This document shows positions 1,586 to 61,677 of a stretch of 64,000 nt of DNA, piece by piece. The position numbers and the translations under genes are program-made. The first letter of the stretch is position 1. Each line of letters opens with the position of its first letter. A model generated the notes under the pieces. That model did not search any database and had not been told where the DNA came from. It was given only the letters and a program-made list of their open reading frames with translations. This DNA is from a virus. The stretch covers positions 9,271 to 73,270 of IMG/VR virus record IMGVR_UViG_3300037110_000161; one strand, 5' to 3'.

Positions 1586-4500
1586 TTACAGGATCGACGT
1601 GCCGCGGCGCAACTCGCGCCGCAGCTCGTTGGCGATGGACCGGGCCGTCTGCCGGCCCGTCCCGCCCCCCTCAACACGCACGTTGATGTCGCCGACGTTG
1701 GTGACGTGCCCTCCTTGGCTGTGGTAGGAGGGCTTTACCCCGGCATTCATCGCCGTGAGCTGGCTGGCAAACCGGCGGGTCGTGGCCGCGCTCATTACCA
1801 TTTCCCCCGGCGAGAGCATGGCAGGGATCACGTCCGTGCCCCGCGGGCGTCCGCCGCCCGCCAGAAAGGCCACACCGCCATGTGCAGCCGTCAGTTTTCC
1901 TTCCATACCGGGCGGCTGCACGTTGGCTGCCGCCTGGGCCAAGCGGCTCATGGCGTCACCGGCCGCCTGAATGGTGGCCAGGAACGTCTGCATTGCGCTG
2001 TTGCCCTCGCCGATGGCGGTCGTGATCTGCGAGACCTTATTGGTCACATCCCCGGCCTGCTTGCCGGCGTCGGGAAACTTTTGCTTCAAGGCGTCCATTC
2101 CCTGATTAGACTGCTGCATTTGCTGGCCAAGATTGGGGAACTTCTGCTGGATGCCGCGCAACCGCTCCGCGTAATCGAGCATTTCCTTCAAGCTCTTGAG
2201 ATTCGCTTCCGTCGAACCCATGTGAAGGTCCAGCGACCAGGGCATGTTTTTCTTCAGGTCTTGGACCTTCTTCAGCAGGTCGTCCATGCCTTTGGCGTTG
2301 ATCTGCATGGGATGCGACCGCATCTGCAAGATCGTCTCGTTGATCTCGCGGAATTTCTTGGTCGCCACGTCCAGGTCGGCCTTCCCCGTGGTTCCGAACA
2401 CGCCGGTGAGCATGTTCGCGCCAACCTTGAGCGCCTGGAACACGCCCACCGCGTCGTCCTTTTGGACCGCCATGTTGCCGGCGATCTGCCGCTGGCGACT
2501 GTCGATCTGCGCCAAGGCGTCGCGCTGATCGTCGTAGGCTTGCTTGACTTCCTTGCTCAGGGTCCGCTGCTGCGTGAGCGATTGCTCGGCCGCGTGGAAC
2601 TGCTCCTCCATCGACTTCCCGGCCAGTTTGGACGGGTCACCGACGTAGACATCTAGCTTGATCTTGCCCAGGCCGGTAGTGATCCGCTGGTTCAACTCGG
2701 CGAGTTTCCCAGGGGCCACGAACAGGTCGCGGATCTCGGCCTTGGTGACCGCCCCCTCCATCGTCTCCCGCATCTTGCGTTTCATCGCGTCGAAGTTGAG
2801 CCAGTCGGAGACCTCCCACTTCTTGCCCGCGAACATCAGGTTTTGGAATTCCTGCAAGTCCTGCTTGGTCTTGGCGAGGGCCTTCTCGCGGTCTTCGCCC
2901 GCGAGGGGTTGGCCCTTCTTGTCGAACAGGTCCATCTGCTTGGCCACGTCCTTGGCCAACTCCCGCATCCGAGTGACGCGCTGTTCCTCGTCGGCCGCGG
3001 CCTTGGCTGCCGCCTGGGCCTGTGACTGCCGATTGGCCTGCAAAATCTTCTGTGCATCCAGTTGGCTTCGCAGTACCCACTCGATCGCCCGCTCGGCGTC
3101 CTCCTCGCCCATAGCGTCCTTCCGCCGCTGGGCGATCGACATCGCCTCTTGGGCGAACGCCTCCGCCCTCTTGTAGATGCTCTGCGCCACGTCCGTGTCC
3201 TGCGGCGTCTTGGCCTTCGCCATCTGCTCTTGGGCCTGGTGCGCCAACTGAAGGGCACGATTGGCATAGTCGGCCTGCTGGTCCCAGCCGCCCTTTCCAT
3301 GCGTCTCGTTGAAGCGAAACTGCGTATCTGCCAAGGTGCCGGAGATTTCCTTGCTCCGCTTCACGGAATCCGTGACGGCCCGCTCGGCTTCCTGGGCCAG
3401 GTTCCGTAAGACGTGAACTTCCTTCTCCGCCTCTTCCACGATCTTGTTCATCGTGGCGTGCGAATCGTCCGTCAGCCGCTTGTTGTCTCCTTTGGTGTCG
3501 TCCACCATCTGGAAGTAGGCTTTGCGCTGCGCGGCCAGGGCTTGGTTCGCCCGTTGGACGATGGCCTGGTTGGCGCGGTCCTCTTCCTCAATCCGCCGCT
3601 GGGCGGCAGCCCGGACCATTTCCAGCCGCTCGTTCTCCGCGTTGCGGAAATCCTCTTCCACCTGCCGGATACTCTGGATGATCCGGGTGTTGGCGAAGTC
3701 GAAGGCGGCATAGGCTGTCAGACCCAGTAGCAGGCCGTTAACAGCGATACCCAGAGGACCGAGCCCCAGGGCCGCCAGGCGAGCATTCATCGCCATCGCG
3801 CCCATTGCCACGGCGAGACCGCCAAAGGCGGTCACGGCCGCGCCCAGCACGGGCACCAACGCCTTGATTGCCGCGCCCAGCGCGTCCGCCCCGCCCACGA
3901 AGCCCAGGAATTGATTGACCGCCTGGACGATCGCGGCCCCCAGGTCCGTCGTCAGGAAGGTCTTCAGCTTGTTCATCTCGGTGAGCGTCTTCTGCGCGTC
4001 GCTGTCGATGAACAGCTTGTACTTCTCGTTGAACGCCGCCACGGTCATTTCGTGGAGGTGCTCCAGGGAGTCGGCCGTCCGCTTGCCGTCCTCGTCCGTC
4101 TCGCGCAGGGCACCGCTGATGGCCCGCACGTTGGGGATCAACTTGGCGAAGGCCGCCATGTTCTCGTCCGTGCTTTCTCGCAGCTTGAGCAGCGCGCCCT
4201 CCAGGCCCAGGGCGGCGATCATCTGCGGCCCGGACTCGAAGCCCAGGCTGCGCAGTTCCTTCGACAAGTCCTGGGAGGGCTTGATAAGGGCCATCATTGC
4301 CGAACGCAGCGCCGTGGCGGCCTCGGCCGGCTTCACGCCGGAAATGGTCAGCGTGACCATCATGGCGTTCAGCTCGTCCAGGCCCACGCCCAACTCGCTC
4401 GACACGGCCGTCACGCGGCCCAGCACCGAGGCCAGTTCCTCGCCCCGCACCCGGCCGACCTGGATCGTCCCAAAAAACTTCGCCGCCACTTCCTCCGCCT

Positions 4501-5269
4501 GGCTGGAACTCATGCGGTAGGAGTTCAATGTGCCGGCAACCAGGTTCACTGCCGCGCCGGCGTCCATCACGGCAACCTTGGACAGCTTAAAGGCCGCCGT
4601 GAGCACCTCGGCTTGCTGCGCGGTGCTCGTGAATTGGTTCGAGATCGCCTGGTACTGCGCCTCGGCGACTTGGGCCAGCGGGATGTTGAACTGCCGGGAC
4701 AACTCGGCCAAGTGCTGCGAGATCGAATCAAGGCTGGTGCCCACGCCCGGCGCAACGGACTGAATCTCCGCCACGCGGGTCATAAATTGCAGGTTGGAGT
4801 CGAACGCCTCGTGCATCGCGTCACGCATGGCGCTGAGCGCGCGGACGATGGCCTGCGTCATTACGACGCGGCTCAAGGTCTCCCACGAGACGACGAAATG
4901 GGCCGCCGCCTTGTCGGCATCCTCGATCGGCGTCTTGTCGATCTGCGGCGTGACCTTCGGCACTTCTGTCGGCGTGACCGGCGCGGTTGCTTGGCCAGGA
5001 GTTTGCCCGGGGGCGGCGGCGCCGCTGGTCGACTGGGCGCTAAAAGCGGATTGCAGTTTCGCCATCGCGGTGGCGGCCGTATTGGCGCTACTGGCAATGT
5101 CCTTGAGGATTTGCACCGTCTCGGCGGCCTTGGTGTTCCAGGTCGCCATCGCGTCGCCCACGGAGCCCAGCCGGGCCTCGAAGCTGCCCAAGGCGCTGTC
5201 CATCTTCGCCAGCGCATCCAGTGCGGCACTGGCGTCGAAGCCCAGACTTTGGACAATTTCATCCGCCAT
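1586..5269 (-). CDS. tail tape measure protein (TP901-like core)
   Basis: 1227 aa, Ala-rich helical, TP901-like core (ELASVLGRV, AATALRSAMMAL), hydrophobic central segment, C-terminal GTDVIPAMLSPGEMV motif. Confidence 0.93.
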   Translation of the reverse strand: MADEIVQSLGFDASAALDALAKMDSALGSFEARLGSVGDAMATWNTKAAETVQILKDIASSANTAATAMAKLQSAFSAQSTSGAAAPGQTPGQATAPVTPTEVPKVTPQIDKTPIEDADKAAAHFVVSWETLSRVVMTQAIVRALSAMRDAMHEAFDSNLQFMTRVAEIQSVAPGVGTSLDSISQHLAELSRQFNIPLAQVAEAQYQAISNQFTSTAQQAEVLTAAFKLSKVAVMDAGAAVNLVAGTLNSYRMSSSQAEEVAAKFFGTIQVGRVRGEELASVLGRVTAVSSELGVGLDELNAMMVTLTISGVKPAEAATALRSAMMALIKPSQDLSKELRSLGFESGPQMIAALGLEGALLKLRESTDENMAAFAKLIPNVRAISGALRETDEDGKRTADSLEHLHEMTVAAFNEKYKLFIDSDAQKTLTEMNKLKTFLTTDLGAAIVQAVNQFLGFVGGADALGAAIKALVPVLGAAVTAFGGLAVAMGAMAMNARLAALGLGPLGIAVNGLLLGLTAYAAFDFANTRIIQSIRQVEEDFRNAENERLEMVRAAAQRRIEEEDRANQAIVQRANQALAAQRKAYFQMVDDTKGDNKRLTDDSHATMNKIVEEAEKEVHVLRNLAQEAERAVTDSVKRSKEISGTLADTQFRFNETHGKGGWDQQADYANRALQLAHQAQEQMAKAKTPQDTDVAQSIYKRAEAFAQEAMSIAQRRKDAMGEEDAERAIEWVLRSQLDAQKILQANRQSQAQAAAKAAADEEQRVTRMRELAKDVAKQMDLFDKKGQPLAGEDREKALAKTKQDLQEFQNLMFAGKKWEVSDWLNFDAMKRKMRETMEGAVTKAEIRDLFVAPGKLAELNQRITTGLGKIKLDVYVGDPSKLAGKSMEEQFHAAEQSLTQQRTLSKEVKQAYDDQRDALAQIDSRQRQIAGNMAVQKDDAVGVFQALKVGANMLTGVFGTTGKADLDVATKKFREINETILQMRSHPMQINAKGMDDLLKKVQDLKKNMPWSLDLHMGSTEANLKSLKEMLDYAERLRGIQQKFPNLGQQMQQSNQGMDALKQKFPDAGKQAGDVTNKVSQITTAIGEGNSAMQTFLATIQAAGDAMSRLAQAAANVQPPGMEGKLTAAHGGVAFLAGGGRPRGTDVIPAMLSPGEMVMSAATTRRFASQLTAMNAGVKPSYHSQGGHVTNVGDINVRVEGGGTGRQTARSIANELRRELRRGTSIL

Positions 5270-5272
5270 TGG

Positions 5273-5761
5273 CTACACCTTGATCTTCGTGACCTTCAGA
5301 CAGGCAAAGGGATCGGGCAAACGCACGTTCTCCGCGAACTTGCGGAACGCCGTCTCTCCCTTCTTCTGAAAGTCGTAGGGACCGGGCTTCTTGAGGTGGA
5401 AGCCCCATTGCGTGGCGTCCGCGACCTCATTGATGCACAACCAAGGCAGCGTGGTTGAGTAATTGAAAACGTAGCGGCCCTTCATCGCGTCGGTTTCCAG
5501 AGAACCGCTGCTCTCCGCCATCCCGCGACCGACGCGGCTAGGGGCCACCGGCGAAATCGGGATGTTGTACTCGATGTTGCGGGCAAGCGCCAGGAACGTG
5601 GCCCGCGATGCGCCGCTCCACACCGGCACCTCCGCCAGCACGGTGGCTTCCAACCACTGCATGATCGCCTGGGCGATGTCCTCCCGCAGTTGCCTGTCCA
5701 GCACCCGGCGGTACTTGTCTAAGTCGATGCGGGGGGCGCGAAGGGTGCCGGTGAATTTCAT
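5273..5761 (-). CDS. putative HK97 gp10-like neck/tail-completion protein
   Basis: ATG 5761 (MKFTGTL); VPVWSGASRAT resembles the gp10-family PVxTGxLRxS motif. Confidence 0.5.
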   Translation of the reverse strand: MKFTGTLRAPRIDLDKYRRVLDRQLREDIAQAIMQWLEATVLAEVPVWSGASRATFLALARNIEYNIPISPVAPSRVGRGMAESSGSLETDAMKGRYVFNYSTTLPWLCINEVADATQWGFHLKKPGPYDFQKKGETAFRKFAENVRLPDPFACLKVTKIKV

Positions 5762-8688: not shown

Positions 8689-8958
8689 CTATCCTTCGGG
8701 GCACTTGTGTCGCAGGGGGCACTCGAAGCGGTCGCCCAGGGCCTTTTCCAGGCGTTCCATCATGGCCGTGTTCTGCGCGATTACGTCGGTGCAGCGCTCG
8801 ACCATCGGCAGCAGCACGTCGCGCTGCTCGTCTTCCAGCTTCGTGATGCGGTCGCTCATTCGCAGTTCGCGGAGCCAGTTCTGCCAGAAGAAAAACGCCA
8901 CCACGATCGCCAGTGGCCCGTACTGTTTCAGTAGCGGCCACAAGTAAGTCATGTCCAT
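8689..8958 (-). CDS. small membrane protein, holin-like (one N-terminal TM plus coiled coil)
   Basis: ATG 8958 with GGGAGG RBS; YGPLAIVVAFFFW TM followed by a charged helix. Confidence 0.5.
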   Translation of the reverse strand: MDMTYLWPLLKQYGPLAIVVAFFFWQNWLRELRMSDRITKLEDEQRDVLLPMVERCTDVIAQNTAMMERLEKALGDRFECPLRHKCPEG

Positions 8959-8979
8959 GCCGACGCCTCCCTTCAAAGG

Positions 8980-9024: not shown

Positions 9025-10461
9025 TTAGCCCTGGAGCACGACGCAGAGGCGGTCGTCCAGGACGGCCACACCGGCGAGAATGTCCAGGTTGACCACCGTG
9101 CCGCCGTTGGCGATGCTGTACTGCATCGAAACCCGCATGGCGATGTCGTTGTAGACACCGACGTGCGACAGCACGCCCATCGCGTTGTTGGGGATGGCCA
9201 GCGGACGGGTGACCAGGGCGATGGCGTTCCGATGGAAGGCCAAGTTCAGTGCGCCGGCCGGGCCGGGATAGCACTTGTCGCCGCTGGCGACAGCCTGCTC
9301 CAGCGGCCGATCCACGTAGATCGTCTGCTGGCCGGCGGCCGACAGGTAGGACTCGATCACGGTGTAGGTCACGCGGCCCGCACCGGTGCCGAAGGCGACC
9401 AACTGCCCGATTTGCGGGGCAGCGTTCCAGCCGGTCAAGACGATCCCTTCCACGTAGCCCGCGGCGTAGGCGGCACCTGCGACGCACGCCTTGTAGACCG
9501 TCAGCGGAGCGCTGGCAGCCGTGGCGTACTTGTTCACCTCGTTCAAGGTGATGGCCGTGGTGGCACCGGTCGCGGTGGTCGCGGCGGTGATGTACGTCGG
9601 CTGGTCATTTCCGGCCACGACGGCGAACTCGCCGATGTTCACGGCATAGTCGGCCAAGGTGACGGCCTGCGACCCGCCCGCGCCGGTGGCCAGGGCATTG
9701 GTGACGGTGCCCGTGGTGTCGGCATCAGCGTTGGCCAGCGAGGGGCTGTTGACGTTCTGGTCCATGTAGGTGTCGAAGCCCAGAATCCGTCCCAGGGTGG
9801 CGCTTTCCAACGCCGTACCGAAGTCGCCGCGCATCTGGGCGGCGATGAACAACTCGTTCTTCAACAGCGCGGTCTCGCTCACGGGAGCAAGCACCAGGTT
9901 GCGACCTTCCAGCGGGGCCTTGTTGATGTTCAACTGCTCGCGGGCTTCCAGCACGTAGTCCTTGCTGTTCTGGCAGGACAAGTTGAGCAACCGGCCGACG
10001 CGCCCGCTCGGGCCACCGTTGGCCAGGGCCGGGGTCAAAAAGGCATGGACGCGGCCCAGCACGGCGCGGTCCACCGAGCGGGCGATGGTCATCATGCCCG
10101 GCCGGAGGTAGATGTCCACCAGGTCTTGGAAGGACTTGCTGGCCTCGCCGTCCTTGATGGTGAAGCTGGTGTAGAACCACTGGTCCAGCGGCACCTTGAC
10201 GTTCGTGGCCGAGGCATCTTGGTTCTGCAAGGGATCGCCGTCCGCCTTGCGGCGAATCTGGAACGTGCCGGGCCGGCGGGTGTTCACCACGTCGCCGAAC
10301 TGCCGGATTTCGTTCTCGAAGTCGCGGTGGACCAGGTTGGCGATCACCATGTTCTCTTGGAGGATCGCCAAGCCTTCCGAGGCCCACAGCTCCGGGATGA
10401 AGGCGGTGTTGTCGTTGTCGTAAGAGACGACCACCGCGGGGGAGAGGTACAACGGATTCAT
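9025..10461 (-). CDS. major capsid protein (P22 coat-like HK97 fold) with large beta-rich insertion
   Basis: AFIPELWA, LVHRDFENEI..GDVVN, LGRILGFDTYMDQN, LAFHRNAIALVTRPL and DILAGVAVLD motifs of P22-coat-like proteins. Confidence 0.92.
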   Translation of the reverse strand: MNPLYLSPAVVVSYDNDNTAFIPELWASEGLAILQENMVIANLVHRDFENEIRQFGDVVNTRRPGTFQIRRKADGDPLQNQDASATNVKVPLDQWFYTSFTIKDGEASKSFQDLVDIYLRPGMMTIARSVDRAVLGRVHAFLTPALANGGPSGRVGRLLNLSCQNSKDYVLEAREQLNINKAPLEGRNLVLAPVSETALLKNELFIAAQMRGDFGTALESATLGRILGFDTYMDQNVNSPSLANADADTTGTVTNALATGAGGSQAVTLADYAVNIGEFAVVAGNDQPTYITAATTATGATTAITLNEVNKYATAASAPLTVYKACVAGAAYAAGYVEGIVLTGWNAAPQIGQLVAFGTGAGRVTYTVIESYLSAAGQQTIYVDRPLEQAVASGDKCYPGPAGALNLAFHRNAIALVTRPLAIPNNAMGVLSHVGVYNDIAMRVSMQYSIANGGTVVNLDILAGVAVLDDRLCVVLQG

Positions 10462-10494
10462 CGTTTTACTCCGTAGTTGTCAGTTCAAGAAACA

Positions 10495-10521
10495 CAAGAA
10501 GCCGCGACGTGCGGCTTCTTG
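10495..10521 (-). promoter_or_regulatory. hairpin between scaffold and capsid genes
   Basis: perfect 11-bp stem CAAGAAGCCGC / GCGGCTTCTTG, 5-nt loop, followed by TGTTTCTT. Confidence 0.5.
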
Positions 10522-10546
10522 ACGACGAACCCCTGATGAATGCGAA

Positions 10547-11434
10547 CTAGCGGCCGAGCTTGCCCTTGGGGGCACGCAATCCGAGCGCAGCAGGGTTCTT
10601 CGCTCGGAGTTCCATGTACTGCTCTTGAGTGAGCTTCCGCGGATCGAACTTGCCGCCAGTTCCCGACGCAAGGCCGCCGGTTGCCGCACTCGACCCGATG
10701 CCGCTGACGACGCCGGACTTAAAAAGGTTGCCGTAGATTTGCGGCAGGTCCTTCATCCGCTTCACAGCGCTGTCGGGCGTGTGGAGCGTGGCGGTCGGCT
10801 CTCCAGTATTGGGATCGGTGTCCGGGAAATCGACCACGACCTTGAACTTCCCCGTGCCTTTGCCCGTCTTCTCGTCCGTGATCTCAATCAGACGGGTCAT
10901 GGGACGCAACACGGACATGACCGTGTTGACGTTGAACGCCTCGCCGCCGACGGCCGCGTCCTGCAAAGCCCGCTCCACCGTTCCTTCGCGGTAACGCTGC
11001 TCCCATTCCTTGGCGGCCTTCTCCGCATTGGTGATCTTGCCAGTGAGCTGCTCTTCGAGTTGCTTCTTCTCGTGAGCCAACTGCTGTTCCTTCGTCCGCG
11101 TTTCCTTCCGCAGGTCTTCCAACTGTTGGGCGAACTGCTCGCGCTCTTGGATGGTCAGGTTCTTCGACGCCGACACCTCCTCCAACATCTTCTCGACCCG
11201 CTGCACTTGTGCCTGATGCTTGCGCCGGTCATCGGCCAGCATCCGGTTGACATCTTCCTGGGAGAAACGAGCATCGCCCGATCCGGTCCCGGCACCTGCT
11301 CCCGCGCCTGACGCAGCCGCGGCAACCGCGCCGGCATCGCCAGCACCCGCGCCGCTTCCGGCACCCGCGCTAGCACCCTCACCCTCGCCGTCGTAAGAAG
11401 CCAACACCGCACGCGACAGATAGAGAGGATTCAT
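10547..11434 (-). CDS. capsid scaffolding protein
   Basis: ATG 11434 (MNPLYLS); G/A linker, FSQEDVN motif, long coiled coil, NLFKS and C-terminal QYMELR; directly upstream of the capsid gene. Confidence 0.85.
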   Translation of the reverse strand: MNPLYLSRAVLASYDGEGEGASAGAGSGAGAGDAGAVAAAASGAGAGAGTGSGDARFSQEDVNRMLADDRRKHQAQVQRVEKMLEEVSASKNLTIQEREQFAQQLEDLRKETRTKEQQLAHEKKQLEEQLTGKITNAEKAAKEWEQRYREGTVERALQDAAVGGEAFNVNTVMSVLRPMTRLIEITDEKTGKGTGKFKVVVDFPDTDPNTGEPTATLHTPDSAVKRMKDLPQIYGNLFKSGVVSGIGSSAATGGLASGTGGKFDPRKLTQEQYMELRAKNPAALGLRAPKGKLGR

Positions 11435-11556: not shown

Positions 11557-12126
11557 CTACGAAACTCGCGACAACCTCACCGCCTGGTCGTCGCGCAGGA
11601 AAGGCCTCAAGAGCGACCATGCCAGCGGATTCGGCACGAGGTTGATAAGGTGTTCGATCGGCACCATGTTCCGCTCGTAGTGCGTGCGAACCTCGGCGTA
11701 GCCTTGGGCCGTGACGGAAAGGTTCTCCAACTCCATCTGCGGGTCTACGCCGTCCAGCAGACTGTAGGCCAATTCGTACTCGGCCCGGCGGATGGCCTCG
11801 GGCACAATCGTGTCCGCGCCGCGGGGGAACTCCAGCTCTTGGCTGGCATCCGCCGCACGCTCATCTTGCCGATATTGCTCCGCCTTCTCCCGATCGAATG
11901 TGCCATTGGTAGGATCACGCCAAGGTGGCAGCGTTTGTTGGCGAAAAAGCCAGACCGAATGCTTTTCCCCTTTGAAGGCCAAGTTGTCGATCAACCGCCG
12001 GGCCGCCAACAAAGCCTTTGGCCAATCCGCGTCGTCGGCGTCATTCCAGGCTTGCGAGTGCAGCCGGCCGGCAAAGTAGTCTTCCGCTTCACCAAGGTCG
12101 CCGTAATACGTTGCGTCAATCGCCAT
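11557..12126 (-). CDS. head-tail adaptor (DnaT-like family)
   Basis: Y..L.EA..YF..RL, ALL.A.R.ID, Q.LEFPR and P.AIRRA.YELA motifs. Confidence 0.75.
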   Translation of the reverse strand: MAIDATYYGDLGEAEDYFAGRLHSQAWNDADDADWPKALLAARRLIDNLAFKGEKHSVWLFRQQTLPPWRDPTNGTFDREKAEQYRQDERAADASQELEFPRGADTIVPEAIRRAEYELAYSLLDGVDPQMELENLSVTAQGYAEVRTHYERNMVPIEHLINLVPNPLAWSLLRPFLRDDQAVRLSRVS

Positions 12127-13285
12127 GTGATACCTGCTTCAGCCAGTCAAGCTGCGTTCGCTCTCGCTCCACGTACCAGCCGCCTTTCCAGAGGTCGGAA
12201 AGCATCTGGAAATACTCTTGGTAGCGCCAACGCACGCGATCCAGGCTGTAGTTGGCCACAGACCGCCGATGAACATCGCTCCGGTCCAAGCGTGGCGCGT
12301 GACGCGCCGCAAAAAGGAAGTGGTCCAGCGTTCGACAGCGAAACCCGGTCCTGCCGTGCTCCACGGTCTCGGGAAACGCGCCCCAATCAGTCGTGATGGC
12401 CGGCGTGCCCGTCATTTGGGACTCAATCGCTACCGCGCCGAAGGGCTCGATATACGTGGTGGGGACAAAAGTGGCGATCGCGCCGCCGTAAAGCTCCGCC
12501 CGCTTCGCACCGGTGGCGAAGCCGACGTACTCCAAGTTGTCGCCTTCGTAGACCTCGCCGTCCGCACAATGGATACGGTTGCCCTCGACCTTGACGCATC
12601 CCTGCCCGGCGATCTTCAGCTTGGCTCCCAGCCGCGTGCAGGTCTCGACGGCAATGTGGATGCCCTTCCGCTTGATGAGGCGGCCGAGGTAGAGATAGTA
12701 GCCGCCCCGGCCGCCGTCCGGCTGGAAGGGGTAGTCGGCCGGGTTCAAATAGTTGGGGATCACCACGTCGTAGAATTTGCCCTCCGGGTCGTAGCCGCCC
12801 TCCGCCCCCCAAATCTTGTGCATGTGGCTGTAAGACTCGAACACGCGGTACTTGGCGAAGGTGCCGTTGTAGCCGATGCCGTACTCTACCACCATCACGT
12901 CCGTACCCACGGCGTTGGCCAGAGGGATGTTAATGGTGCCCATGATAAGGCACACGAAGTCGCCCGGCCGCTTGCGCTTGTTGATCTCGGCCGCAGCCCG
13001 CTCATTGGTCAACTGCCAGTAGGGTGCCCGGCCGCTCCAATCAACCTCGTAGAGGGCATCGGGATTATACCTGCCAAAGAACCCCTCCTGCTCGGCCTTG
13101 GAGAGGATAGTCACGTCTTCGACGCAGCAATCGGCGACTTCGCTCCCCTCCACGCCGTAGTGGAAGACCTCGTGGCCGAGGGATGCCATCATCTGGCAGA
13201 AGTGCAAGACCTTCATCGTGAAGGCGCAGGCCGAATGACTCATGTTCGTCTGCGTATGCGGCAAGGCAACCACGTGGAATCGCAT
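12116..13285 (-). CDS. GT-B glycosyltransferase (GT4-like)
   Basis: YLGRLIKRKG, EPFGAVAIESQMTGTP (Ex7E) and ETVEHGRTGF motifs. Confidence 0.9.
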   Translation of the reverse strand: MRFHVVALPHTQTNMSHSACAFTMKVLHFCQMMASLGHEVFHYGVEGSEVADCCVEDVTILSKAEQEGFFGRYNPDALYEVDWSGRAPYWQLTNERAAAEINKRKRPGDFVCLIMGTINIPLANAVGTDVMVVEYGIGYNGTFAKYRVFESYSHMHKIWGAEGGYDPEGKFYDVVIPNYLNPADYPFQPDGGRGGYYLYLGRLIKRKGIHIAVETCTRLGAKLKIAGQGCVKVEGNRIHCADGEVYEGDNLEYVGFATGAKRAELYGGAIATFVPTTYIEPFGAVAIESQMTGTPAITTDWGAFPETVEHGRTGFRCRTLDHFLFAARHAPRLDRSDVHRRSVANYSLDRVRWRYQEYFQMLSDLWKGGWYVERERTQLDWLKQVSHGD

Positions 13286-13394
13286 GGCTTTCCCTCTAGG
13301 TTCCGAATTTCAGGTACAGGGTCTTCAGCGCCCAAATCGCGTCCTGCCACACCGTCGTGCCATTCACCCGGCGGTGCGGTCAGCTTGCTCTGGA

Positions 13395-15578
13395 CTAGCC
13401 CTTGACCTTCACGTAGGAAAAGTGCGCCACCCAATTGACCGTGTACGTGGAAACCCCGCCGACCGAAAGTTGCAGGACCGAACTGTTGTTGACCAATCCC
13501 AAAACGTTGTAGTTGACGCCGTTGTAAGAGGTGTAAACCCAAACGGGTACCGCGAGCGTAACCACGCCGTTCAGGATATGAGCGTTTGCGCAACCGTAGC
13601 CGTGATAGTAGCCGATGTTCGACGTGCCGATGATTCGGCCAACCAGATGGATGAAGATAGAAATCGTACTCGTAGTCTCGGCCGTAATGGGCAGTCCTGG
13701 TGCCAAATAGACGGTCGCCGCATTCACGGATTGACCCTGGCAGACAATCTCTCCATGCACAGCGTCACCGGCAGTTGCAATCTGTCCGGTACATGCGACA
13801 GTCTGGCCATTCATGGTCGTTGTTGCGCCAGGACCAACTGCCACCCGCTGGGGATACAAGGTGGTGCCGTCAAACGTCAGGTTCGCGCTGTCGGTCACCG
13901 TGCTCGCCGATGCGGCATAGATGACTTGGCCTGCCGTCAGACCCGACAAGCCGGGTCCAGCCGGTCCCGTGGCTCCCGTCGCACCAACGCCGCCCGTGCC
14001 CCCAGTCGGCCCTGTGGCCCCCGTCGCGCCGACACCACCTGTTCCACCAGTAGGCCCCGTGGCTCCCGTCGCGCCGACGCCACCCGTACCACCGGTCGGT
14101 CCCGATGGTCCAGTCGCGCCGACACCGCCGGTGTTGCCTTGCGGGCCACTCGGTCCAGTCGGTCCCGTGGCCCCCGGCTGTCCGGCTAGTCCGATGTTCC
14201 AATTTGCGTAGGTTCCTGAGCCACCTGTGAGATCGGCAGTGAGGGTGAGTGTCCCGGCAGAATAGGTAGTCACCACTCCTTCCAACCAATTGGACGGAGT
14301 GGTCACATAAGAAACCCGCACTCGGTCCCCTGGCAGGTATGCCAGGCCAGATTGCGTTGCAAAACCAATGCTTCCAGTTCCAATCGTGTGGGAAGTTGTG
14401 GAGGTGGCGGTATAGCCAGCTCCCGTCGCTCCCGTTGGTCCGGTAGCACCTGTCGCACCAACGGCCCCGCTGCTGCCAGCAGTACCCTGCGGCCCACTTG
14501 GGCCGCTCGGTCCAGTCGCGCCCGTGGTTCCAACGCCGCTCGGCCCGGTCGGTCCCGTAGCACCTGTCGCGCCTACGGCACCGTTGCTGCCGGCCGTTCC
14601 TTGCGGCCCGCTGGGGCCGCTCGGTCCAGTCGCGCCCGTAGTTCCAATGCCGGTCGGCCCGGTCGGTCCCGTAGCGCCTGTCGCGCCTGTCGCGCCTACG
14701 GCCCCGTCATTTCCAGCAGCGCCTTGCGGCCCGCTGGGGCCACTCGGCCCAGTCGCGCCCGTGGTTCCAATGCCAGTCGCTCCGGTCGGGCCTGTAGCGC
14801 CTGTCGCGCCCACGGCCCCGTTGCCCCCAGCAGTACCTTGCGGCCCGCTGGGGCCACTCGGCCCCGTCGCGCCCGTGGTTCCAATGCCAGTTGGCCCGGT
14901 CGGTCCCGTAGCGCCTGTCGCGCCAACAGCCCCGTCATTTCCAGCAGCGCCCTGCGGCCCGCTGGGGCCACTCGGCCCAGTCGCGCCCGTGGTTCCAACG
15001 CCAGTCGGCCCGGTCGGTCCCGTAGCGCCTGTCGCGCCAACAGCACCATCACTTCCAGCAGCGCCTTGCGGCCCGCCCGGGCCACTCGCCCCAGTCGCGC
15101 CCGTGGTTCCAATGCCAGTCGGCCCGGTCGGTCCCGTAGCGCCCGTCGCGCCAGCGGCCCCATCGTTACCGGCAGTTCCTTGCGGCCCGCTGGGGCCACT
15201 CGGCCCCGTTGCGCCCGTGGTTCCAATGCCAGTCGGCCCGGTCGGTCCCGTAGCACCCGTCGCGCCAACAGCACCGTCATTTCCCGCAGCGCCCTGCGGC
15301 CCGCTGGGGCCACTCGGCCCCGTTGCGCCCGTGGTTCCAATGCCAGTCGGCCCGGTCGGTCCCGTAGCACCCGTCGCGCCAACAGCACCAGCGCTTCCCG
15401 CTGGCCCTGTCGCCCCCGTTGGGCCTGTTGCGCCGACCGGTCCCGTCGCGCCTGTCGCGCCCGTTGGTCCTGTCGCGCCATTGCCCCCGCTTCCGCCAGC
15501 ACCCGGCCCGCTGGGGCCTGTCGGACCTGTAGGCCCAGTAGGGCCTTGCAATCCTGGATTCTCGTAATCGAATTGCAT
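13395..15578 (-). CDS. collagen-like fibre protein
   Basis: long G-X-Y tracts (GAT/GPT/GPS), an internal beta domain, a second collagen segment and a C-terminal globular domain; ATG 15578 after GAGGT. Confidence 0.88.
14450..15400. repeat. eight ~114-bp coding tandem repeats (38 aa)
   Basis: GIGTT/GVGTT recurs 8 times; anchor words at 15331, 15217, 15103, 14989, 14875 and 14761 are spaced 114 bp; one unit has an extra GAT triplet. Confidence 0.9.
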
Positions 15579-15588
15579 CACAGCGACC

Positions 15589-16383
15589 TCACGGTGCAAA
15601 AGCGTACCAACTCAAGCTCCCGCTCGCATCGGACTTCAAGCACCAAAACTGATTGACACCAACGGGTGCGGGAGGCAAGCCCACGCTCGGACCTGTTGCA
15701 CCCGTAGCGCCCTTCTCGCCGACAGGCCCACGGGGGCCTGTTGCCCCGGTCGCACCTGTGGGCCCGGGATCGCCCTGGTCGCCCGCTGCTCCTTGTAGCC
15801 CTTGTGGACCGGACGGACCGCAGGGACCGGTCGAGCCAGCCGGGCCGGTGGCACCGGTCGGGCCACCGACCGGACCGGTCGCACCTGTTGCGCCTGTAGG
15901 ACCAGACGGGCCAGTCGCACCCGTTGGGCCGCCGGATGGCCCACTAGGGCCCGTTGCACCCGTGGGGCCTGTGGCACCGACCGCCCCATCACTTCCCACT
16001 GGACCTGTCGCGCCCGTTGGTCCTGTTGCGCCGACCGCCCCATCGCTTCCAGCGGGTCCTGTCGCACCAACGGCCCCAGCGTCTCCTGTGGGGCCTGTTG
16101 CTCCGGCAGGACCAGTCGCACCGACAGGACCGGTGGCACCTGTTGCCCCAACTCCGTCATTGCCCGGTGCGCCACTTGGCCCAGCGGGTCCGGTGGCACC
16201 CACAGGTCCCGTGGCACCCACAGGGCCAGTGGCCCCCTGCGCGCCGGTGGGACCCGTCGCGCCGAGGCGACCCTGCGGCCCTGTTGCGCCGACTGGGCCG
16301 GTTGGACCCGTGGGGCCGCCCGATGGACCACTCGGCCCTTGGGGGCCCGTTGCACCGGTCGGATCAGCATAGATGAATGCCAC
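15589..16383 (-). CDS. short collagen-like fibre protein
   Basis: almost entirely G-X-Y, with short terminal [11 protein letters not shown] motif. Confidence 0.85.
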
Positions 16384-16711: not shown

Positions 16712-18604
16712 CTATTCCTCTTGATTGTGCTTGCCCTGGCCGCGCACGGGCGTCTTGGTCGTGTCGTTGAGAGTGGTGTCGCGGCTGGCGGCCTTCTCCA
16801 CCTTGCCCGCGCCGGGGTTTGCCGAGAGATCGTGGACGCCACGCGCGCCGGCGTCGCTGTTCATCTGCCCGACCTCGTTCAAGGCCGTGGATTCGGAGCC
16901 AGCCAGTTTCTCGGTAGCCGGATCGCGGCTGGTGGCCCCGGTGGTCTCGGTGCCCAATTGGCCGCCTCTTTGCTGGGCCTGCAAAATCCGAATCGCCCTG
17001 GCCGCATGGTCCGCGCGGGCCTGGATGTGCTCGTCGTCGTTGAAGCCCAGGGCCATTGAGCCGGTCTTCTCGCCGCACAGACCGGCCTCGACCGCCGCAA
17101 TGATGGTCGTGGGGTCGCTGGTGGCGTAGGGGGCCTTGTCGATCTCATCGAAGATGGCTTGCATGTCGCTGACGCTGATCTTGCCTCCCAAAAGCGCCAA
17201 GACGATGTTCTTTGCCAGCTCGCGTTTAACCTTCTGCCCGGGCACGGCGTACATCAACTTGACCAGGCTTTGGGCTTCCGCAATCCGATCGGAATCCGTC
17301 TTCAGGCTGTAGCGGTCGGGATATTTGATTGTGGCGACGTTCCGCTGCGAAACGTTTCGCTCTTCGTAGGCCGCCCAGAACTCGGCAATCTGCCGCTCGG
17401 CCGCCTCCAGGACCAAACCGATGTAGGACAGACCGGCTTCAAGCCCTTGGTTGTCCATCGACTTCGATTCCGCCGTGGCCCGGTTCGCCGTGTCTGCGAC
17501 GGCCAGATGGATCAGCTTGCGGATGCCGTCCTCCAGCTTGGCTTGCAGGTCCATCGACGCCTTTAACGGTTCGCTCGACGGGTTGATGAACGAGGGAGCG
17601 TTCATCCCCTTGTCGTAGGTCCGGCCCTGAGTCACTCCGACCCGGATGTCATTGTCGGCACCAGGCTGTCCGCCCGTCGTCGCCGTCCCGTCTTCGCCCA
17701 CGGAACTCTTTAAGTGGCCGCCCGTGGCCCGCTGGTCCTTTTGCTCGATATAGAAGGGGAAGTTGGCCTTGAGGGCGTAATTCACGTCGCCCGAGCCCAG
17801 GTTCAAAAGCGCGATCTGGTGCTCCACCACGTCCTTAATCATCGAGTCGCCGATGTCCAGCAACACGAAAGGGATGCGCGTCAACTCCAACTCCACGGCC
17901 CCGGCCGGGTTCCCCTCACGGTCGATGGGATTTCCGGCGGTGTCCAGAAATTGCAGGTTGACCAGACCCGTGTCGCGGTCGATCCACAACATGCGGAACC
18001 GCTCGACGGTCGTAGTTGGCAGGTAGGTCCGCTGGTCGAAGTTGAGAACTACGTCGCGGAGCAGAATCGCCTGGAACGTGGACGGCTCGTCCGGCTTGGA
18101 GCAAGTCCAGCTCAGGATGTCTTCAATGGGGTAGAAGTACAGGTACGGCCGATAATTCTTCACGTCCGCCAAGGTGGCGTTGCCCGGGACCAGTGGGGAA
18201 TCGACGTACACGCCCACGCGGCCCATAATGAGCAACTCGGTCAGTACCTTGATGCCCAAGAAGCCGTTCATGGTGTTGCCGCGGAGATCGACGCCCAGGT
18301 CCAAGCCGTTGACCGCCCGCTGATACGCACTGCTGCCGTCGCGCCGGCTCGTGTCCTTGAGCCGCTGGAAGATGGCATTGCGGACATCGTTGATAGCCAC
18401 CCGAGCAAACGATGGGATCGGCGTCATATCCAGCCGCGCCTGGAACTCCGGTTCATCCTCCCGCGACGAGAACTTTTTGAGGTACAGCTTGCGGAAGTAT
18501 TCGCCGCCGTTGTAGCAAATCCGCCATTTGCGCCAGTCCAGCAGGCTGCTGAGGTAACTCGGGTGCCTGACTTCGACGATGTTGGTGATGAACTCAACAA
18601 CCAA
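16712..18604 (-). CDS. portal protein
   Basis: 630 aa right after terL; RHP.Y, GRVGVYVD and LTRIPFV motifs; AAGGAG RBS before TTG. Confidence 0.85.
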   Translation of the reverse strand: MVVEFITNIVEVRHPSYLSSLLDWRKWRICYNGGEYFRKLYLKKFSSREDEPEFQARLDMTPIPSFARVAINDVRNAIFQRLKDTSRRDGSSAYQRAVNGLDLGVDLRGNTMNGFLGIKVLTELLIMGRVGVYVDSPLVPGNATLADVKNYRPYLYFYPIEDILSWTCSKPDEPSTFQAILLRDVVLNFDQRTYLPTTTVERFRMLWIDRDTGLVNLQFLDTAGNPIDREGNPAGAVELELTRIPFVLLDIGDSMIKDVVEHQIALLNLGSGDVNYALKANFPFYIEQKDQRATGGHLKSSVGEDGTATTGGQPGADNDIRVGVTQGRTYDKGMNAPSFINPSSEPLKASMDLQAKLEDGIRKLIHLAVADTANRATAESKSMDNQGLEAGLSYIGLVLEAAERQIAEFWAAYEERNVSQRNVATIKYPDRYSLKTDSDRIAEAQSLVKLMYAVPGQKVKRELAKNIVLALLGGKISVSDMQAIFDEIDKAPYATSDPTTIIAAVEAGLCGEKTGSMALGFNDDEHIQARADHAARAIRILQAQQRGGQLGTETTGATSRDPATEKLAGSESTALNEVGQMNSDAGARGVHDLSANPGAGKVEKAASRDTTLNDTTKTPVRGQGKHNQEE

Positions 18605-21660: not shown

Positions 21661-22095
21661 TTAGGACTTGGCCGAAGCAGAGGCGGGGGCCGGAGCCGCG
21701 GAAGCGGGAGCGTCGGCCGGGGCAGCCGCTCCCTCGATCACGGCGATCTTCGCCTTCACCAGGGCCATGCCCTCGGGCGTGGCGAGCTTCTTGTCCAGCA
21801 CGTTCTCATAGGTGGATTCCAGTTCCTTCTCGATGGCGTCGTTGCCGGACTCCACCAACTTGGAGAGATCGTGAATCTTTTCGAGCAGATCGTTCACGTC
21901 GCCCACGGCAAAGTCTTCGAGCAGGGCCGGCAACAGCTTGAGGCCGACCGCCCGCAGCTTGATGGCCAGGACTTGAGCATCCCGCTTCTTGGTCGTCAGC
22001 GCTTCGTTCTTGCCGAAGAGCCACTTGCCGATCTCACGACCAACGAGCACGCACGCCACGGCGGCCAGAATCCAAATCACAACAATGGGGTTCAT
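21661..22095 (-). CDS. membrane-anchored helical protein
   Basis: ATG 22095; N-terminal TM IVVIWILAAVACVLVG. Confidence 0.65.
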   Translation of the reverse strand: MNPIVVIWILAAVACVLVGREIGKWLFGKNEALTTKKRDAQVLAIKLRAVGLKLLPALLEDFAVGDVNDLLEKIHDLSKLVESGNDAIEKELESTYENVLDKKLATPEGMALVKAKIAVIEGAAAPADAPASAAPAPASASAKS

Positions 22096-22169
22096 CTTTC
22101 TTCTCCGCGTTTGGGAATGCCGCAGGCGCGGCGTAGCAGTCACCGGACAAAGGCAGTCGCACTAAGGAA

Positions 22170-22871
22170 TCAACAGTGCGTGGCCGGCAGCAACTTCTCT
22201 TTGAGTTTCTTACCGTAGCCGAGGCAAAAGCCGACCAGGAAACCAGCGCCACCGATCGGGACCACAAGCCAACCAGGCAGTGCGGACTCGGGCTCCGCCA
22301 GATCGGGGTTCACCACCTCGGGCTTGCCGCCGTCGTTAATCGGCTGCGGCTCGGGATCGTGATTGGGCTGTGGCTGAGGTTTCGGACGTTCCAGATTGTT
22401 GAGGCGGTTGTCGGTATCCCGCCGCCACGGCAAGATAGGTCGCAGCCCTTGGGCCTTGCCGACCGCCCCCGCCAGGGCCCCGTTCAGCCCGGCCGCCGTC
22501 ATGGGAAGGTCCTTCCCCGCCGCCTCGTAGACCACTACCGCGTCGGGTTGCTGCATTCGCACGGTGGGTAGCCCCGCGACGTTCGGAGCATACCGCTCCT
22601 TGTAGATCGCCGTGTCACTCGTCACAGGGCAGAATTGCACCTGGTCCTTCAGTTTGGTCAGATTTGGATTGTTGTCGAACCAGTTCAGGATTTCGTTGTA
22701 GCGGGCGTCGTTGGAGTCTCCGACGACACTGATGTACCACTTGCCCTGGTCGTTGGGCAGGTTGACCACGCGCTCTTCGGCCAGGACGCCGTTCACTGTG
22801 TCGGCGAAACAGGGGACTACGACCGCGAAGAGGGCGACCGCACACATCGCGCATAGCAACAGCTTGTTCAT
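22170..22871 (-). CDS. exported protein with C-terminal TM, possibly thioredoxin-like fold without CxxC
   Basis: signal peptide, RY....LPTVRMQ motif, Pro-rich linker, C-terminal TM. Confidence 0.65.
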   Translation of the reverse strand: MNKLLLCAMCAVALFAVVVPCFADTVNGVLAEERVVNLPNDQGKWYISVVGDSNDARYNEILNWFDNNPNLTKLKDQVQFCPVTSDTAIYKERYAPNVAGLPTVRMQQPDAVVVYEAAGKDLPMTAAGLNGALAGAVGKAQGLRPILPWRRDTDNRLNNLERPKPQPQPNHDPEPQPINDGGKPEVVNPDLAEPESALPGWLVVPIGGAGFLVGFCLGYGKKLKEKLLPATHC

Positions 22872-22901
22872 TGCTTTCCTCTCGTGAAACAGACTTGGGC
22901 G

Positions 22902-60536: not shown

Positions 60537-60887
60537 ATGGCAAAGAAGACACGGCGCGGCCAAAAACAATGCCCGAGTTGCAAAGCGTGGATCAAAGGCA
60601 CTCGCGCCAAGAGTTGTCCGAAGTGCGGCTACGATTTCACCAACGGGCGGTCGGCCGCTCACACCCTTGAAGCCACACCCATTGCTGCCGCTGAAACGCC
60701 GACCAAGGTTGCTAATGCTATCACGCTGGAGCAGATCCGGGCCGTTGGTCAGATGGTGAAGACGATTGGCGGATTTCGTCGTCTACATGAAATGCTCGGT
60801 GTCATCAAGGAAGTCGGCGGGCTAAGGAAGTTCAAGGATTTGCTAGACGCGATGGAGGTCACGGAGCCAAGCGAGGCCAAATCCTAG
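60537..60887 (+). CDS. Zn-ribbon protein
   Basis: CPSC...CPKC; AGGAG RBS. Confidence 0.7.
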   Translation: MAKKTRRGQKQCPSCKAWIKGTRAKSCPKCGYDFTNGRSAAHTLEATPIAAAETPTKVANAITLEQIRAVGQMVKTIGGFRRLHEMLGVIKEVGGLRKFKDLLDAMEVTEPSEAKS

Positions 60888-61405
60888 TCCATGTGGATAT
60901 GGTGGCCGCGTTGAAACCGTCCACGCACGAGAAGGGTACAGCCCCACTGCCAAATGCGCTGGCCTCGATCCAGGTCGTGCCAGCGTTGACGAAGTTCTTC
61001 GTCGGCCAGCCAAGTGCGGTGGAACGCGCTTGGGTCTTCAAAGTAGATGCGGTGCCGGTCGTAGCCGATGGCGGCGACCCAGTGCCCGTCGTCCCATAGC
61101 TCCCGGTAAGGCCGATTGGACGTACGATAGGCTTGGAGCGTGATGAGGGTGGGGTGGCCGGCGTCGATACCCCGTCGCAGGTCCGCCAGCCGCATCCGCT
61201 GCCGGGCGCGAAACGGCAGACCATAGTAGTTGAAGGTATTGAGGACGCCAACCGTGCCGGTGCCCGCCTTCGTGGTCCTGGCAAACAAGGCCACGCGATC
61301 CTCACGCTCTTCCACGCCAGCGAAGACCAGGGCCGAAACCAAGAGGTTCGCACCGCAGTCGAAACAGAAAGTCTGCCGGGTCTCGGGATACTCGATGATT
61401 CTCAT
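60884..61405 (-). CDS. C39-family cysteine peptidase, standalone
   Basis: RQTFCFDCGA, GHWV and FEDPS triad motifs; ATG 61405. Confidence 0.8.
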   Translation of the reverse strand: MRIIEYPETRQTFCFDCGANLLVSALVFAGVEEREDRVALFARTTKAGTGTVGVLNTFNYYGLPFRARQRMRLADLRRGIDAGHPTLITLQAYRTSNRPYRELWDDGHWVAAIGYDRHRIYFEDPSAFHRTWLADEELRQRWHDLDRGQRIWQWGCTLLVRGRFQRGHHIHMD

Positions 61406-61677
61406 GGCGAGGCTTTGGCGATGCCGTTCCCTGCACTCATGGGTCACAATAGAGGAATATCTATGGGCAAAAAAATTCATGCAGCAGGCGCACCAATACG
61501 TCCCCGTGGCAAGGGAGCGGATGGCAATGGCAGCCGAGCTGCTTCCCGGCCTGTTCCGGCAGGGCGGCGTTCAGGTAGGAGCGCCGCTTGACTATGGATT
61601 TCGTACTTCGCTAAGGTTGATTCTCTCGGGCACCTGTTCGTATCGCGGAAAGGGCTTTTCACGTGTTCGGCGGGCGA

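What the first reader, a model, noticed from the sequence alone, without database searches (positions are those of the whole stretch)
10417..11434. Scaffold and major capsid share a 15-aa N-terminal leader (MNPLYLSxAVxxSYD): candidate new maturation signal
Seen: scaffold starts MNPLYLSRAVLASYD and capsid starts MNPLYLSPAVVVSYD (12/15 identical). Five consecutive identical residues use different synonymous codons (CCT/CCG, CTC/TTG, TAT/TAC, CTG/CTC, TCG/TCC), so the peptide, not the DNA, is conserved. P22-coat-like sequence begins just after the leader (DNDNTAFIPELW), and no prohead protease gene is evident in the head module. Established: in Staphylococcus phage 80alpha, scaffold and capsid share an N-terminal motif cut by the host Prp cysteine protease that matures ribosomal protein L27. 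Inference: an analogous leader with a different motif, cut near Y|D by a host protease or by one of this element's papain-like peptidases (22902, 23468, 36088, 60884).
Basis: partly seen in the sequence, partly recalled or inferred. Interest (0 to 1): 0.8.

Follow-up and report, generated by a model that had tools for sequence, protein, structure and literature searches.

The report
Matched leader tag on scaffold and capsid
The two proteins that build this phage's empty head begin with the same short add-on peptide, which in many related uncultured phages differs between phages but matches within each one, so it looks like a new kind of assembly or cut-off tag that nobody has yet tested.

Summary
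The scaffold (10547-11434, minus strand) and the P22-like major capsid protein (9025-10461, minus strand) share 12 of their first 15 residues but use different codons.

The pairing is general. In 58 representative relatives, each capsid leader fits its own scaffold's N-terminus far better than other phages' scaffolds (mean score 32.7 against 18.0; 0 of 2000 permutations reach this). Leader sequences are lineage-specific. Both leaderless capsids found (2 of 2) sit beside leaderless scaffolds.

The 80alpha/Prp model does not transfer. The Planctomycetota hosts lack Prp, their L27 has no N-terminal extension, and no host protein carries the tag. No known prohead protease family was found.

A small phage-encoded protein with an invariant Cys, His and Asp occurs in 17 of 18 leader-bearing records rated at least 65% complete. 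It is absent from this record, which is only 60% complete. This record does hold a different C39-like peptidase at 60884-61480.

Best reading: a co-evolving leader that a phage-encoded papain-like peptidase probably removes. Neither the cut nor the enzyme has been shown. An uncleaved assembly tag remains a live rival.

This scan has noted the same leader family before on other genomes. My four paper searches found only the 80alpha case in print.

The parts
10417..10461 (-). Capsid leader, residues 1-15 (MNPLYLSPAVVVSYD)
   Evidence: AlphaFold2 gives pLDDT below 50 for residues 1-17. Distant and leaderless homologues begin just after it.
10405..10416 (-). Short Asp/Asn linker (DNDN) between the leader and the N-arm AFIPELW. 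Some relatives have insertions of 7-13 residues here.
9025..10461 (-). Major capsid protein gene, P22-like coat, 478 aa plus stop
   Evidence: Pfam PF11651 E=2.2e-22. phrog_283 E=2e-50. The model matches the Sf6, P22 and CUS-3 coats at Foldseek E from 7e-14 to 1e-11.
11390..11434 (-). Scaffold leader, residues 1-15 (MNPLYLSRAVLASYD)
   Evidence: Mostly pLDDT below 50.
11273..11389 (-). Scaffold low-complexity Gly/Ala/acidic tether, residues 16-54. Its length varies among relatives.
   Evidence: Alignment A4. pLDDT below 50 for residues 9-54.
10547..11434 (-). Scaffolding protein gene, 295 aa plus stop: leader, tether, coiled coil (59-163), small alpha/beta domain (169-238) and two short C-terminal helices (270-284)
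   Evidence: phrog_206 E=8.4e-9. AlphaFold2 model. No PDB fold match at E<=0.001, so no sign of a protease domain.
60884..61480 (-). Free-standing C39-like cysteine peptidase candidate, 198 aa, with the motifs QTFCFDCG, DGHWVA and FEDP. It is the only papain-fold leader-peptidase-like gene in this record.
   Evidence: Sub-threshold Pfam hits: DUF3335 E=2.7e-5 and Peptidase_C39_2 E=0.0027. Sequence. No relative in 5 long related records or in 15 other records by PF13529.

Best explanation
Shown here:
- The first ~15 residues of the scaffold and of the P22-like capsid protein are a discrete hydrophobic tag rich in strand-favouring (beta-branched and aromatic) residues. A flexible acidic, Gly- or Asn-rich linker joins it to each protein.
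- The tag is selected at the peptide level.
- It is specific to each phage lineage and evolves together in the two proteins.

Inferred:
- Both tags are read by one phage-encoded partner. The best candidate is a small papain-like (C39-like) cysteine peptidase.
- That enzyme would cut at the tag/linker boundary, here after SY, before D16 in the capsid and before D/G in the scaffold. The cut would leave N-termini equivalent to those of leaderless relatives (M-AN... capsid, M-AD... scaffold).
- If the enzyme's binding groove and its two substrates evolve together, that would explain why the two tags match within a phage yet differ between phages.

In this record the cutter would be one of two genes: the family member that probably lies in the missing ~40% of the genome, or the different C39-like gene at 60884-61480.
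For: Recurrence and co-variation:
- 42 unique pairs in close relatives: own identity 7.1 of 12 against 5.0 of 12 for cross pairs; 0 of 10000 permutations reach this.
- 157 loci hold both genes complete. They give 122 unique pairs and 58 representatives. Own best local score averages 32.7 against 18.0 for cross pairs. The own scaffold ranks first of 58 for 20 capsid leaders and in the top three for 32. 0 of 2000 permutations reach the own mean. 33 of 58 exceed the 95th percentile of cross scores and 17 of 58 the 99th.
- Lineage-specific matched tags include YQIKWVG, IRQAYF, KRYFVPVYD/KRWFVPIYD, RSWYG and LVLR/LVCR.

Not gene conversion: 129 of 299 identical residues share a codon, against 128 expected.

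Presence and absence go together: 2 of 2 leaderless capsids in the family (L217, L155) have leaderless scaffolds. The cultured phages MAR10 and VanLee are also leaderless in both proteins.

Boundary: about 12 of 150 representatives start M-AN... exactly where the leaders end. The last leader residue is Y or F in 40 of 49 capsids.

Structure predictions: both tags are modelled as disordered.

Only the scaffold and the capsid carry the tag, in this record and in 5 long relatives.

Candidate enzyme: a ~165-aa family with invariant C12, H123 and D134.
- It is present in 17 of 18 leader-bearing records rated at least 65% complete, and in all 7 rated 100%.
- It occurs once in each of two host MAGs, on the prophage contig about 43-46 kb from the capsid gene.
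- It is absent from 4 of 4 leaderless records.
- One Atlas neighbour cluster carries Peptidase_C39 in 19% of its members, at score 0.94.
Against: - No cut has been observed, and no cultured member of the family exists (best cultured capsid hit <=31% identity).
- The candidate family has no Pfam or PDB sequence match. Its peptidase nature rests on an invariant Cys, His and Asp and one Atlas lead.
- It lies about 40 kb from the head genes, beside replication-type genes. It could serve another purpose.
- It is missing from this record (60% complete) and from G415 (80% complete).
- The leaderless controls are weak: two are 30-41% complete and two are very distant phages.
- The window's own C39-like gene is not related to that family by profile comparison (probability below 1%) and occurs in no relative.
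- Tests that allow for shared ancestry are weak. Among 17 sister pairs, own beats cross in 6, loses in 1 and ties in 10 (sign test p=0.125). By my own arithmetic on those differences, 3 of 128 sign assignments reach the observed sum.
- Single-site contrasts are underpowered, with 1-8 independent pairs each.
- The last leader residue is not always aromatic: D, G, R, H or C in 9 of 49.
Confidence: 0.5

Rival explanations
1. The tag is an uncleaved assembly tag. The two tags either pair with each other, for example as strands of one sheet inside the procapsid, or dock in the same site on a phage structural protein. This would tie the scaffold's N-terminus to the capsid's N-arm during assembly. 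No protease is needed; the tag is displaced or simply retained.
For: - Matched sequences, in register with the tag/linker boundary in both proteins, are what self-pairing would select for.
- The last 8 tag residues are 48% V/I/Y/F/W/T/C against 28% in the capsid body, and 1.5% acidic against 13%.
- The scaffold tag sits on a disordered tether 25-90 residues long, like a tethered ligand.
- No known prohead protease family was found in 5 records, four of them rated complete.
- In 80alpha the scaffold leader is needed for assembly but its cleavage is not (PMC5744158, passages read).
Against: - Leaderless relatives assemble without the tag and start exactly at the boundary.
- AlphaFold2 does not pack the tag onto the capsid fold.
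- A candidate peptidase travels with the tag.
Confidence: 0.25
2. The tag is a leader cut by a host protease, as in Staphylococcus phage 80alpha, where host Prp trims the capsid protein, the scaffold and ribosomal protein L27.
For: - The architecture is the same: a short shared N-terminal peptide on scaffold and capsid, and no phage prohead protease.
- Distantly related Firmicute-type loci have scaffolds starting ...FNLQFHA-EE or ...LQLFA-EEE. These resemble the F|A site described for Prp.
Against: - Prp (PF04327) was found in 0 of 2 host MAGs and 0 of 5 phage records.
- Host L27 starts MAHKKGQGSS, with no extension.
- A leader pattern and a leader HMM hit only the prophage's own two genes in the two hosts.
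- In 401 Planctomycetota genomes only 5 weak hits appeared (E 0.017-0.046). Apart from the prophage's own capsid gene (G001), none looks like a tagged host protein.
- The tag sequence is lineage-specific and spans phage loci of 34-64% GC. A single conserved host enzyme would not produce that.
Confidence: 0.1
3. There is no function: chance similarity, a recent duplication or gene conversion, or the true start codons lie downstream of the tag.
For: The tags are short, and an alternative GTG start exists for the scaffold.
Against: - The tag is conserved as peptide across capsid identities from 34% to 99%.
- Codon sharing is at the chance level: 129 observed against 128 expected.
- An in-frame stop lies just upstream of many capsid starts.
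- The permutation tests argue against chance.
Confidence: 0.03

Closest known systems
Staphylococcus phage 80alpha capsid and scaffold leaders removed by host Prp (PMC5744158; passages read)
   Same: A short N-terminal peptide is shared by the scaffold and the capsid protein. The phage has no classical prohead protease. The site of cutting or function is the boundary between the leader and the mature protein.
   Different: In 80alpha the motif copies the host L27 extension and is cut by the essential host enzyme Prp. Here the hosts have neither, the tag differs from phage to phage and co-varies, and a phage-encoded candidate enzyme travels with it.
Double-glycine leader peptides cut by C39 peptidase domains of bacteriocin exporters (recalled from general knowledge, not from a paper read here)
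   Same: An N-terminal hydrophobic leader that a papain-fold Cys-His-Asp enzyme would remove. The window's 60884 ORF has the order Q...DCG, GHW, D. The travelling family has an invariant Cys, His and Asp and one Atlas lead to Peptidase_C39.
   Different: The leaders end in Tyr or Phe, not Gly-Gly; only 2 of 49 end in Gly. The enzyme is free-standing and not fused to an ABC transporter. The substrates are virion proteins. Pfam hits are below cut-off or absent.
P22-type coat and scaffold assembly (abstract of bioRxiv 10.1101/2022.12.13.520362)
   Same: A P22-like coat fold. A separate scaffold with a coiled coil and two short C-terminal helices. No protease gene in the head module.
   Different: The cultured relatives checked, MAR10 and VanLee, have no shared N-terminal tag. 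From recall, P22 itself has none either. Here an extra matched tag sits at the opposite (N-terminal) end of the scaffold and in front of the coat N-arm.
Classical prohead proteases (HK97 S78, ClpP-like S14, lambda-type S49, T4 S77)
   Same: They trim N-terminal parts of capsid and scaffold proteins during maturation.
   Different: None was found in 5 records, four of them rated complete (the S77 control rang in no control genome). No protease gene lies between the portal and capsid genes.

Membership tests
80alpha-type Prp-dependent leader | The scaffold and capsid proteins share an N-terminal peptide | tested here: met
   12 of 15 residues identical. The pairing recurs in relatives.
80alpha-type Prp-dependent leader | The host encodes Prp (Pfam PF04327) | tested here: not met
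   0 of 2 host MAGs and 0 of 5 phage records. The controls rang in Bacillus, Thermotoga and Lactococcus.
80alpha-type Prp-dependent leader | The motif copies an N-terminal extension of host ribosomal protein L27 | tested here: not met
   L27 of both host MAGs starts MAHKKGQGSS.
80alpha-type Prp-dependent leader | The leader is proteolytically removed | not testable with these tools
   This needs N-terminal sequencing or mass spectrometry of particles.
P22-like coat protein (PF11651) | Profile match above the curated cut-off and a P22/Sf6-type fold | tested here: met
   79.9 bits against a cut-off of 24. Foldseek E from 7e-14 to 1e-11 against the Sf6, P22 and CUS-3 coats.
C39 leader peptidase system | A papain-fold enzyme with Gln/Cys, His and Asp in that order, and a profile match | tested here: inconclusive
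   The 60884 ORF has the motifs, but its Pfam scores are below cut-off (24.2 against 25; 18.7 against 24). The travelling family has invariant C12, H123 and D134 but no Pfam or PDB hit. There is one Atlas lead.
C39 leader peptidase system | The leader ends in Gly-Gly | tested here: not met
   The last residue is Y or F in 40 of 49 capsids and G in 2 of 49.
Classical prohead protease (S78, S14, S49, S77) | A family member is encoded by the phage | tested here: not met
   0 of 5 records for each family. The S77 search is uninformative, because its control rang nowhere.
Phage scaffolding protein | Profile match, position just upstream of the capsid gene, and elongated helical architecture | tested here: met
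   phrog_206 E=8.4e-9. The gene order portal, adaptor-like, scaffold, capsid is conserved. The model shows a coiled coil plus two short C-terminal helices.

The most novel reading that the evidence does not exclude
The matched tags are self-recognising zipper peptides. The scaffold tag and the capsid tag pair directly with one another inside the procapsid, and each phage lineage has its own private sequence. That would make assembly partner-specific and would stop scaffold and capsid proteins of co-infecting relatives from mixing. The small Cys-His-Asp enzyme then clips both tags to release the scaffold. This would be a new assembly principle for tailed phages and a new enzyme class for head maturation.
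Probability: 0.2. Interest if true: 0.9.

Novelty: new variant of a known kind. Interest (0 to 1): 0.75.

Why it matters
Head assembly of tailed phages is usually explained in one of two ways: scaffold-to-coat contacts without any cutting (P22), or a dedicated prohead protease (HK97, T4, lambda). The only described case of a leader shared by scaffold and capsid is 80alpha, which borrows a host ribosomal-protein protease.

Here a very large, wholly uncultured phage group shows a third pattern. The capsid search found 1337 proteins at E<=1e-10 among 8000 scored candidates and 2559 cluster representatives at E<=0.001. In this group a private tag, evolving together in both proteins, sits on both head-building proteins, and a candidate phage-encoded papain-like enzyme travels with it.

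If confirmed, this would add a new maturation route. It would also offer a natural set of orthogonal short tag pairs for loading or building protein shells, and a handle for studying assembly in phages of Planctomycetota, which have hardly been studied. The idea is directly testable by co-expression and mass spectrometry.

Tried and rejected
Complex prediction of the capsid protein with scaffold residues 1-50 returned 'no answer' (score 0.00). It is listed here only and counts neither for nor against binding.

Single-site contrasts that allow for shared ancestry had only 1-8 independent pairs and none was significant. The sister-pair sign test gave p=0.125.

Host-side searches for a protein carrying the tag:
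- The IUPAC pattern gave 7 matches in two host MAGs. Three were the prophage's own genes, two were an internal acetate-kinase-like motif, and two were short open frames of 19 and 60 residues.
- The leader HMM gave only the prophage genes below E=0.03.
- In 401 Planctomycetota genomes there were 5 hits at E 0.017-0.046, none convincing.

C92-like permuted papain at 23468-24130 as the cutter: rejected as a general answer. It is absent from 3 of 4 complete distant leader-bearing genomes. It also sits beside a predicted lipoprotein gene (22902-23480), which fits earlier notes of a lysis-like cassette there.

The adaptor-like gene 11557-12126, which sits in the usual protease slot, has no cysteine. 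It matches phrog_477 and DnaT_2, and it is present in leaderless relatives too.

The scaffold as a protease fusion: there was no PDB fold match at E<=0.001.

Homology of Firmicute-type scaffolds to this scaffold was weak (hhalign probability 9% and 2%), so that comparison is only a positional analogy.

The candidate peptidase family gave no Pfam or PDB match. The window's ORFs 60884 and 36088 are not related to it by profile comparison.

Paper searches returned only the 80alpha work for shared scaffold/capsid leaders. Supplementary files were not opened. The library lacks most subscription journals, so 'not in print' holds only for those four searches.
Full report
WHAT IS THERE

The window is bases 9271-73270 of a 73,270-bp virus record that CheckV rates 60% complete. 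The head genes lie on the minus strand:
- large terminase, 18617-20311
- portal, 16712-18604
- two collagen-like genes and a glycosyltransferase
- an adaptor-like gene, 11557-12126
- scaffold, 10547-11434 (phrog_206)
- a P22-like major capsid protein, 9025-10461 (PF11651, E=2.2e-22)

The capsid protein starts MNPLYLSPAVVVSYD and the scaffold MNPLYLSRAVLASYD. That is 12 of 15 identical, and nothing else in the two proteins is alike. Five consecutive identical residues use different codons. A relaxed motif scan of the whole record gave four matches; only these two lie at the start of an ORF.

THE PAIR RECURS AND CHANGES TOGETHER

A scan of viral contigs returned 80 loci whose capsid proteins are 54-99% identical to this one. 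Almost every locus that holds both genes shows a leader on both. The 42 unique pairs agree at 7.1 of 12 positions with their own partner and 5.0 of 12 with other phages' partners. None of 10000 permutations reaches this.

At positions where the two leaders have the same residue, they share a codon 129 times out of 299, against 128 expected from codon usage. So the peptide, not the DNA or RNA, is under selection, and recent gene conversion is excluded.

A search of cluster representatives reached capsid proteins of 34-63% identity. Most carry an N-terminal extension of 8-25 residues that ends in Tyr or Phe just before [A/D/E]-N-[D/S/N]. About 12 of 150 start M-A-N... exactly at that point.

Four more scans gave loci for these distant lineages. 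There the leaders are quite different from the window's, yet they again match within each phage. Examples are YQIKWVG in both proteins, IRQAYF in both, KRYFVPVYD with KRWFVPIYD, RSWYG in both, and LVLR with LVCR.

Of 157 loci with both genes complete, 122 pairs were unique, and 58 representatives were kept (under 80% identity over the first 70 N-arm residues).
- The best ungapped local score between a capsid leader and its own scaffold's N-terminus averages 32.7, against 18.0 for other scaffolds.
- The own scaffold ranks first of 58 for 20 capsid leaders and in the top three for 32.
- 0 of 2000 permutations reach the own mean.
- 33 of 58 own scores exceed the 95th percentile of cross scores, and 17 exceed the 99th.
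- The 58 include two leaderless pairs and two intron-split capsid genes, all of which lower these counts.

Tests that allow for shared ancestry are weaker. Among 17 non-overlapping sister pairs, own beats cross in 6, loses in 1 and ties in 10 (sign test p=0.125). Single-site contrasts have only 1-8 independent pairs. The tree nevertheless shows several separate joint changes. One is Cys-Phe to Ser-Tyr in both proteins, in the window's own small clade.

THE TAG IS A SEPARABLE MODULE

- Distant homologues in Firmicute-type contigs start at the alignment column of N(T)AFIPELW.
- Both leaderless capsid proteins found inside the family (L217 and L155) sit beside scaffolds that start directly with the acidic region, MADEIQ... 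and MADDINNENEE....
- The cultured relatives Vibrio phage MAR10 and Gordonia phage VanLee are leaderless in both proteins.
- AlphaFold2 models the capsid with pLDDT below 50 for residues 1-17 and a confident P22/Sf6-like fold after that.
- The scaffold model has residues 9-54 at pLDDT below 50 (residues 1-8 are also mostly low), then a coiled coil, a small domain and two short C-terminal helices, with no protease-like fold.
- Between tag and body lie linkers of variable length.
- The last eight tag residues are 48% V/I/Y/F/W/T/C against 28% in the capsid body, and almost free of acidic residues.
- Only the scaffold and the capsid carry the tag, in this record and in five long relatives.

THE 80ALPHA MODEL DOES NOT TRANSFER

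In 80alpha, host Prp cuts the capsid protein, the scaffold and ribosomal protein L27 between F and A. The scaffold leader is needed for assembly, although its cleavage is not (PMC5744158, passages read).

Here the hosts are Planctomycetota. Prophage copies lie in a Pirellulales MAG and a Planctomycetaceae MAG.
- Neither MAG has Prp.
- Their L27 starts MAHKKGQGSS, with no extension.
- A leader pattern and a leader HMM find only the prophage's own two genes in these MAGs.
- 401 Planctomycetota genomes gave five weak hits, none convincing.
- The tag is not one motif but many, in phage loci of 34-64% GC. That does not fit a single conserved host enzyme.

WHICH ENZYME, IF ANY

No S78, ClpP, S49 or S77 protease, and no phage-encoded Prp, is found in five records, four of them rated 100% complete. 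The S77 control rang nowhere, so that search says little.

- 22902 is a predicted lipoprotein.
- 23468 is a C92-like permuted papain, conserved near the terminase in close relatives but absent from 3 of 4 complete distant leader-bearing genomes.
- 36088 has a relative in 1 of 5 long records.
- 60884-61480 has the C39 motif order (QTFCFDCG, DGHWVA, FEDP) and sub-threshold C39-like Pfam hits. It occurs in none of the related records searched.

Earlier notes of this scan on other genomes pointed to a small phage cysteine peptidase. I followed that lead by clustering all ORFs of 13 records. This recovered a ~165-aa family with invariant C12, H123 and D134.
- It is present in 17 of 18 leader-bearing records rated at least 65% complete, including all 7 rated 100%.
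- It is present in 5 of 8 records rated 50-60% complete's set. The window's own record, at 60%, lacks it. It is present in 0 of 9 records below 45%.
- It occurs once in each host MAG, on the prophage contig.
- It is absent from 4 of 4 leaderless records. Two of these are fragments and two are very distant phages.
- It lies about 40 kb from the head genes. The whole block that holds it in relatives is missing from this record, which fits the 60% completeness.
- Its family assignment is open. There is no Pfam or PDB sequence hit, and only one Atlas neighbour cluster, in which 19% of members carry Peptidase_C39.

READING

A phage-encoded reader that evolves together with both tags explains why the tags match within a phage and differ between phages. 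A papain-like leader peptidase is the best candidate I found, and the boundary shared with leaderless relatives is the likely cut site.

I put this at 0.5. The rivals are an uncleaved pairing or docking tag at 0.25, a host protease at 0.1, and no function at 0.03. The remainder is left open. Neither a cut nor any binding has been shown.

PRIOR NOTICE

This scan has noted the same leader family on other genomes. Four literature searches returned only the 80alpha case.

Noticed in passing
L037:3106-3989, L045:3312-3972, L048:3330-3966, L049:4065-4713: Group I introns (Rfam RF00028, 50-76 bits, at or above the gathering score) split the capsid gene just after the N-arm motif FIPELW(A) in four related phages. 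Two of them carry an ORF with a weak endonuclease VII match.
   Followed up: partly
window 8689-8976 (-): A 95-aa protein with an apparent hydrophobic N-terminal segment is encoded directly after the capsid gene. It is conserved (51-72% identity) in all 5 long relatives and in nearer lineages, but tblastn did not detect it in most distant or leaderless loci. Its function is unknown.
   Followed up: partly
window 12116-16383 (-): Two collagen-like Gly-X-Thr repeat genes and a GT1/GT4-type glycosyltransferase sit between the portal and the adaptor-like gene. Only 2 of 5 long relatives share them.
   Followed up: no
window 21661-24883 (-): A conserved block upstream of the large terminase holds a C92-like permuted papain and a predicted lipoprotein. 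It looks like a lysis or envelope cassette rather than head maturation.
   Followed up: partly
window 60884-61480 (-): A free-standing C39-like cysteine peptidase is found only in this record among the 16 searched.
   Followed up: partly
L085 (Planctomycetaceae MAG contig), about 2900-5400: The scaffold and capsid genes of this prophage copy are broken into several frames. This could be decay or long-read assembly errors.
   Followed up: no
L087:3268-3966 and L089:808-1401: In distant Firmicute-type and Nitriliruptoria-labelled contigs the scaffold starts ...KFNLQFHA-EE or ...ELQLFA-EEE, resembling the F|A Prp site of 80alpha, while the neighbouring capsid protein has no leader. Homology of these scaffolds to the window's scaffold is weak.
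   Followed up: partly
whole record G000 compared with G403, G406 and G407: A block of about 35-45 kb present in relatives is missing from this record. It holds genes with ParB-domain and DNA-ligase-domain matches, other replication-type genes and the Cys-His-Asp family. This fits CheckV's 60% completeness.
   Followed up: partly
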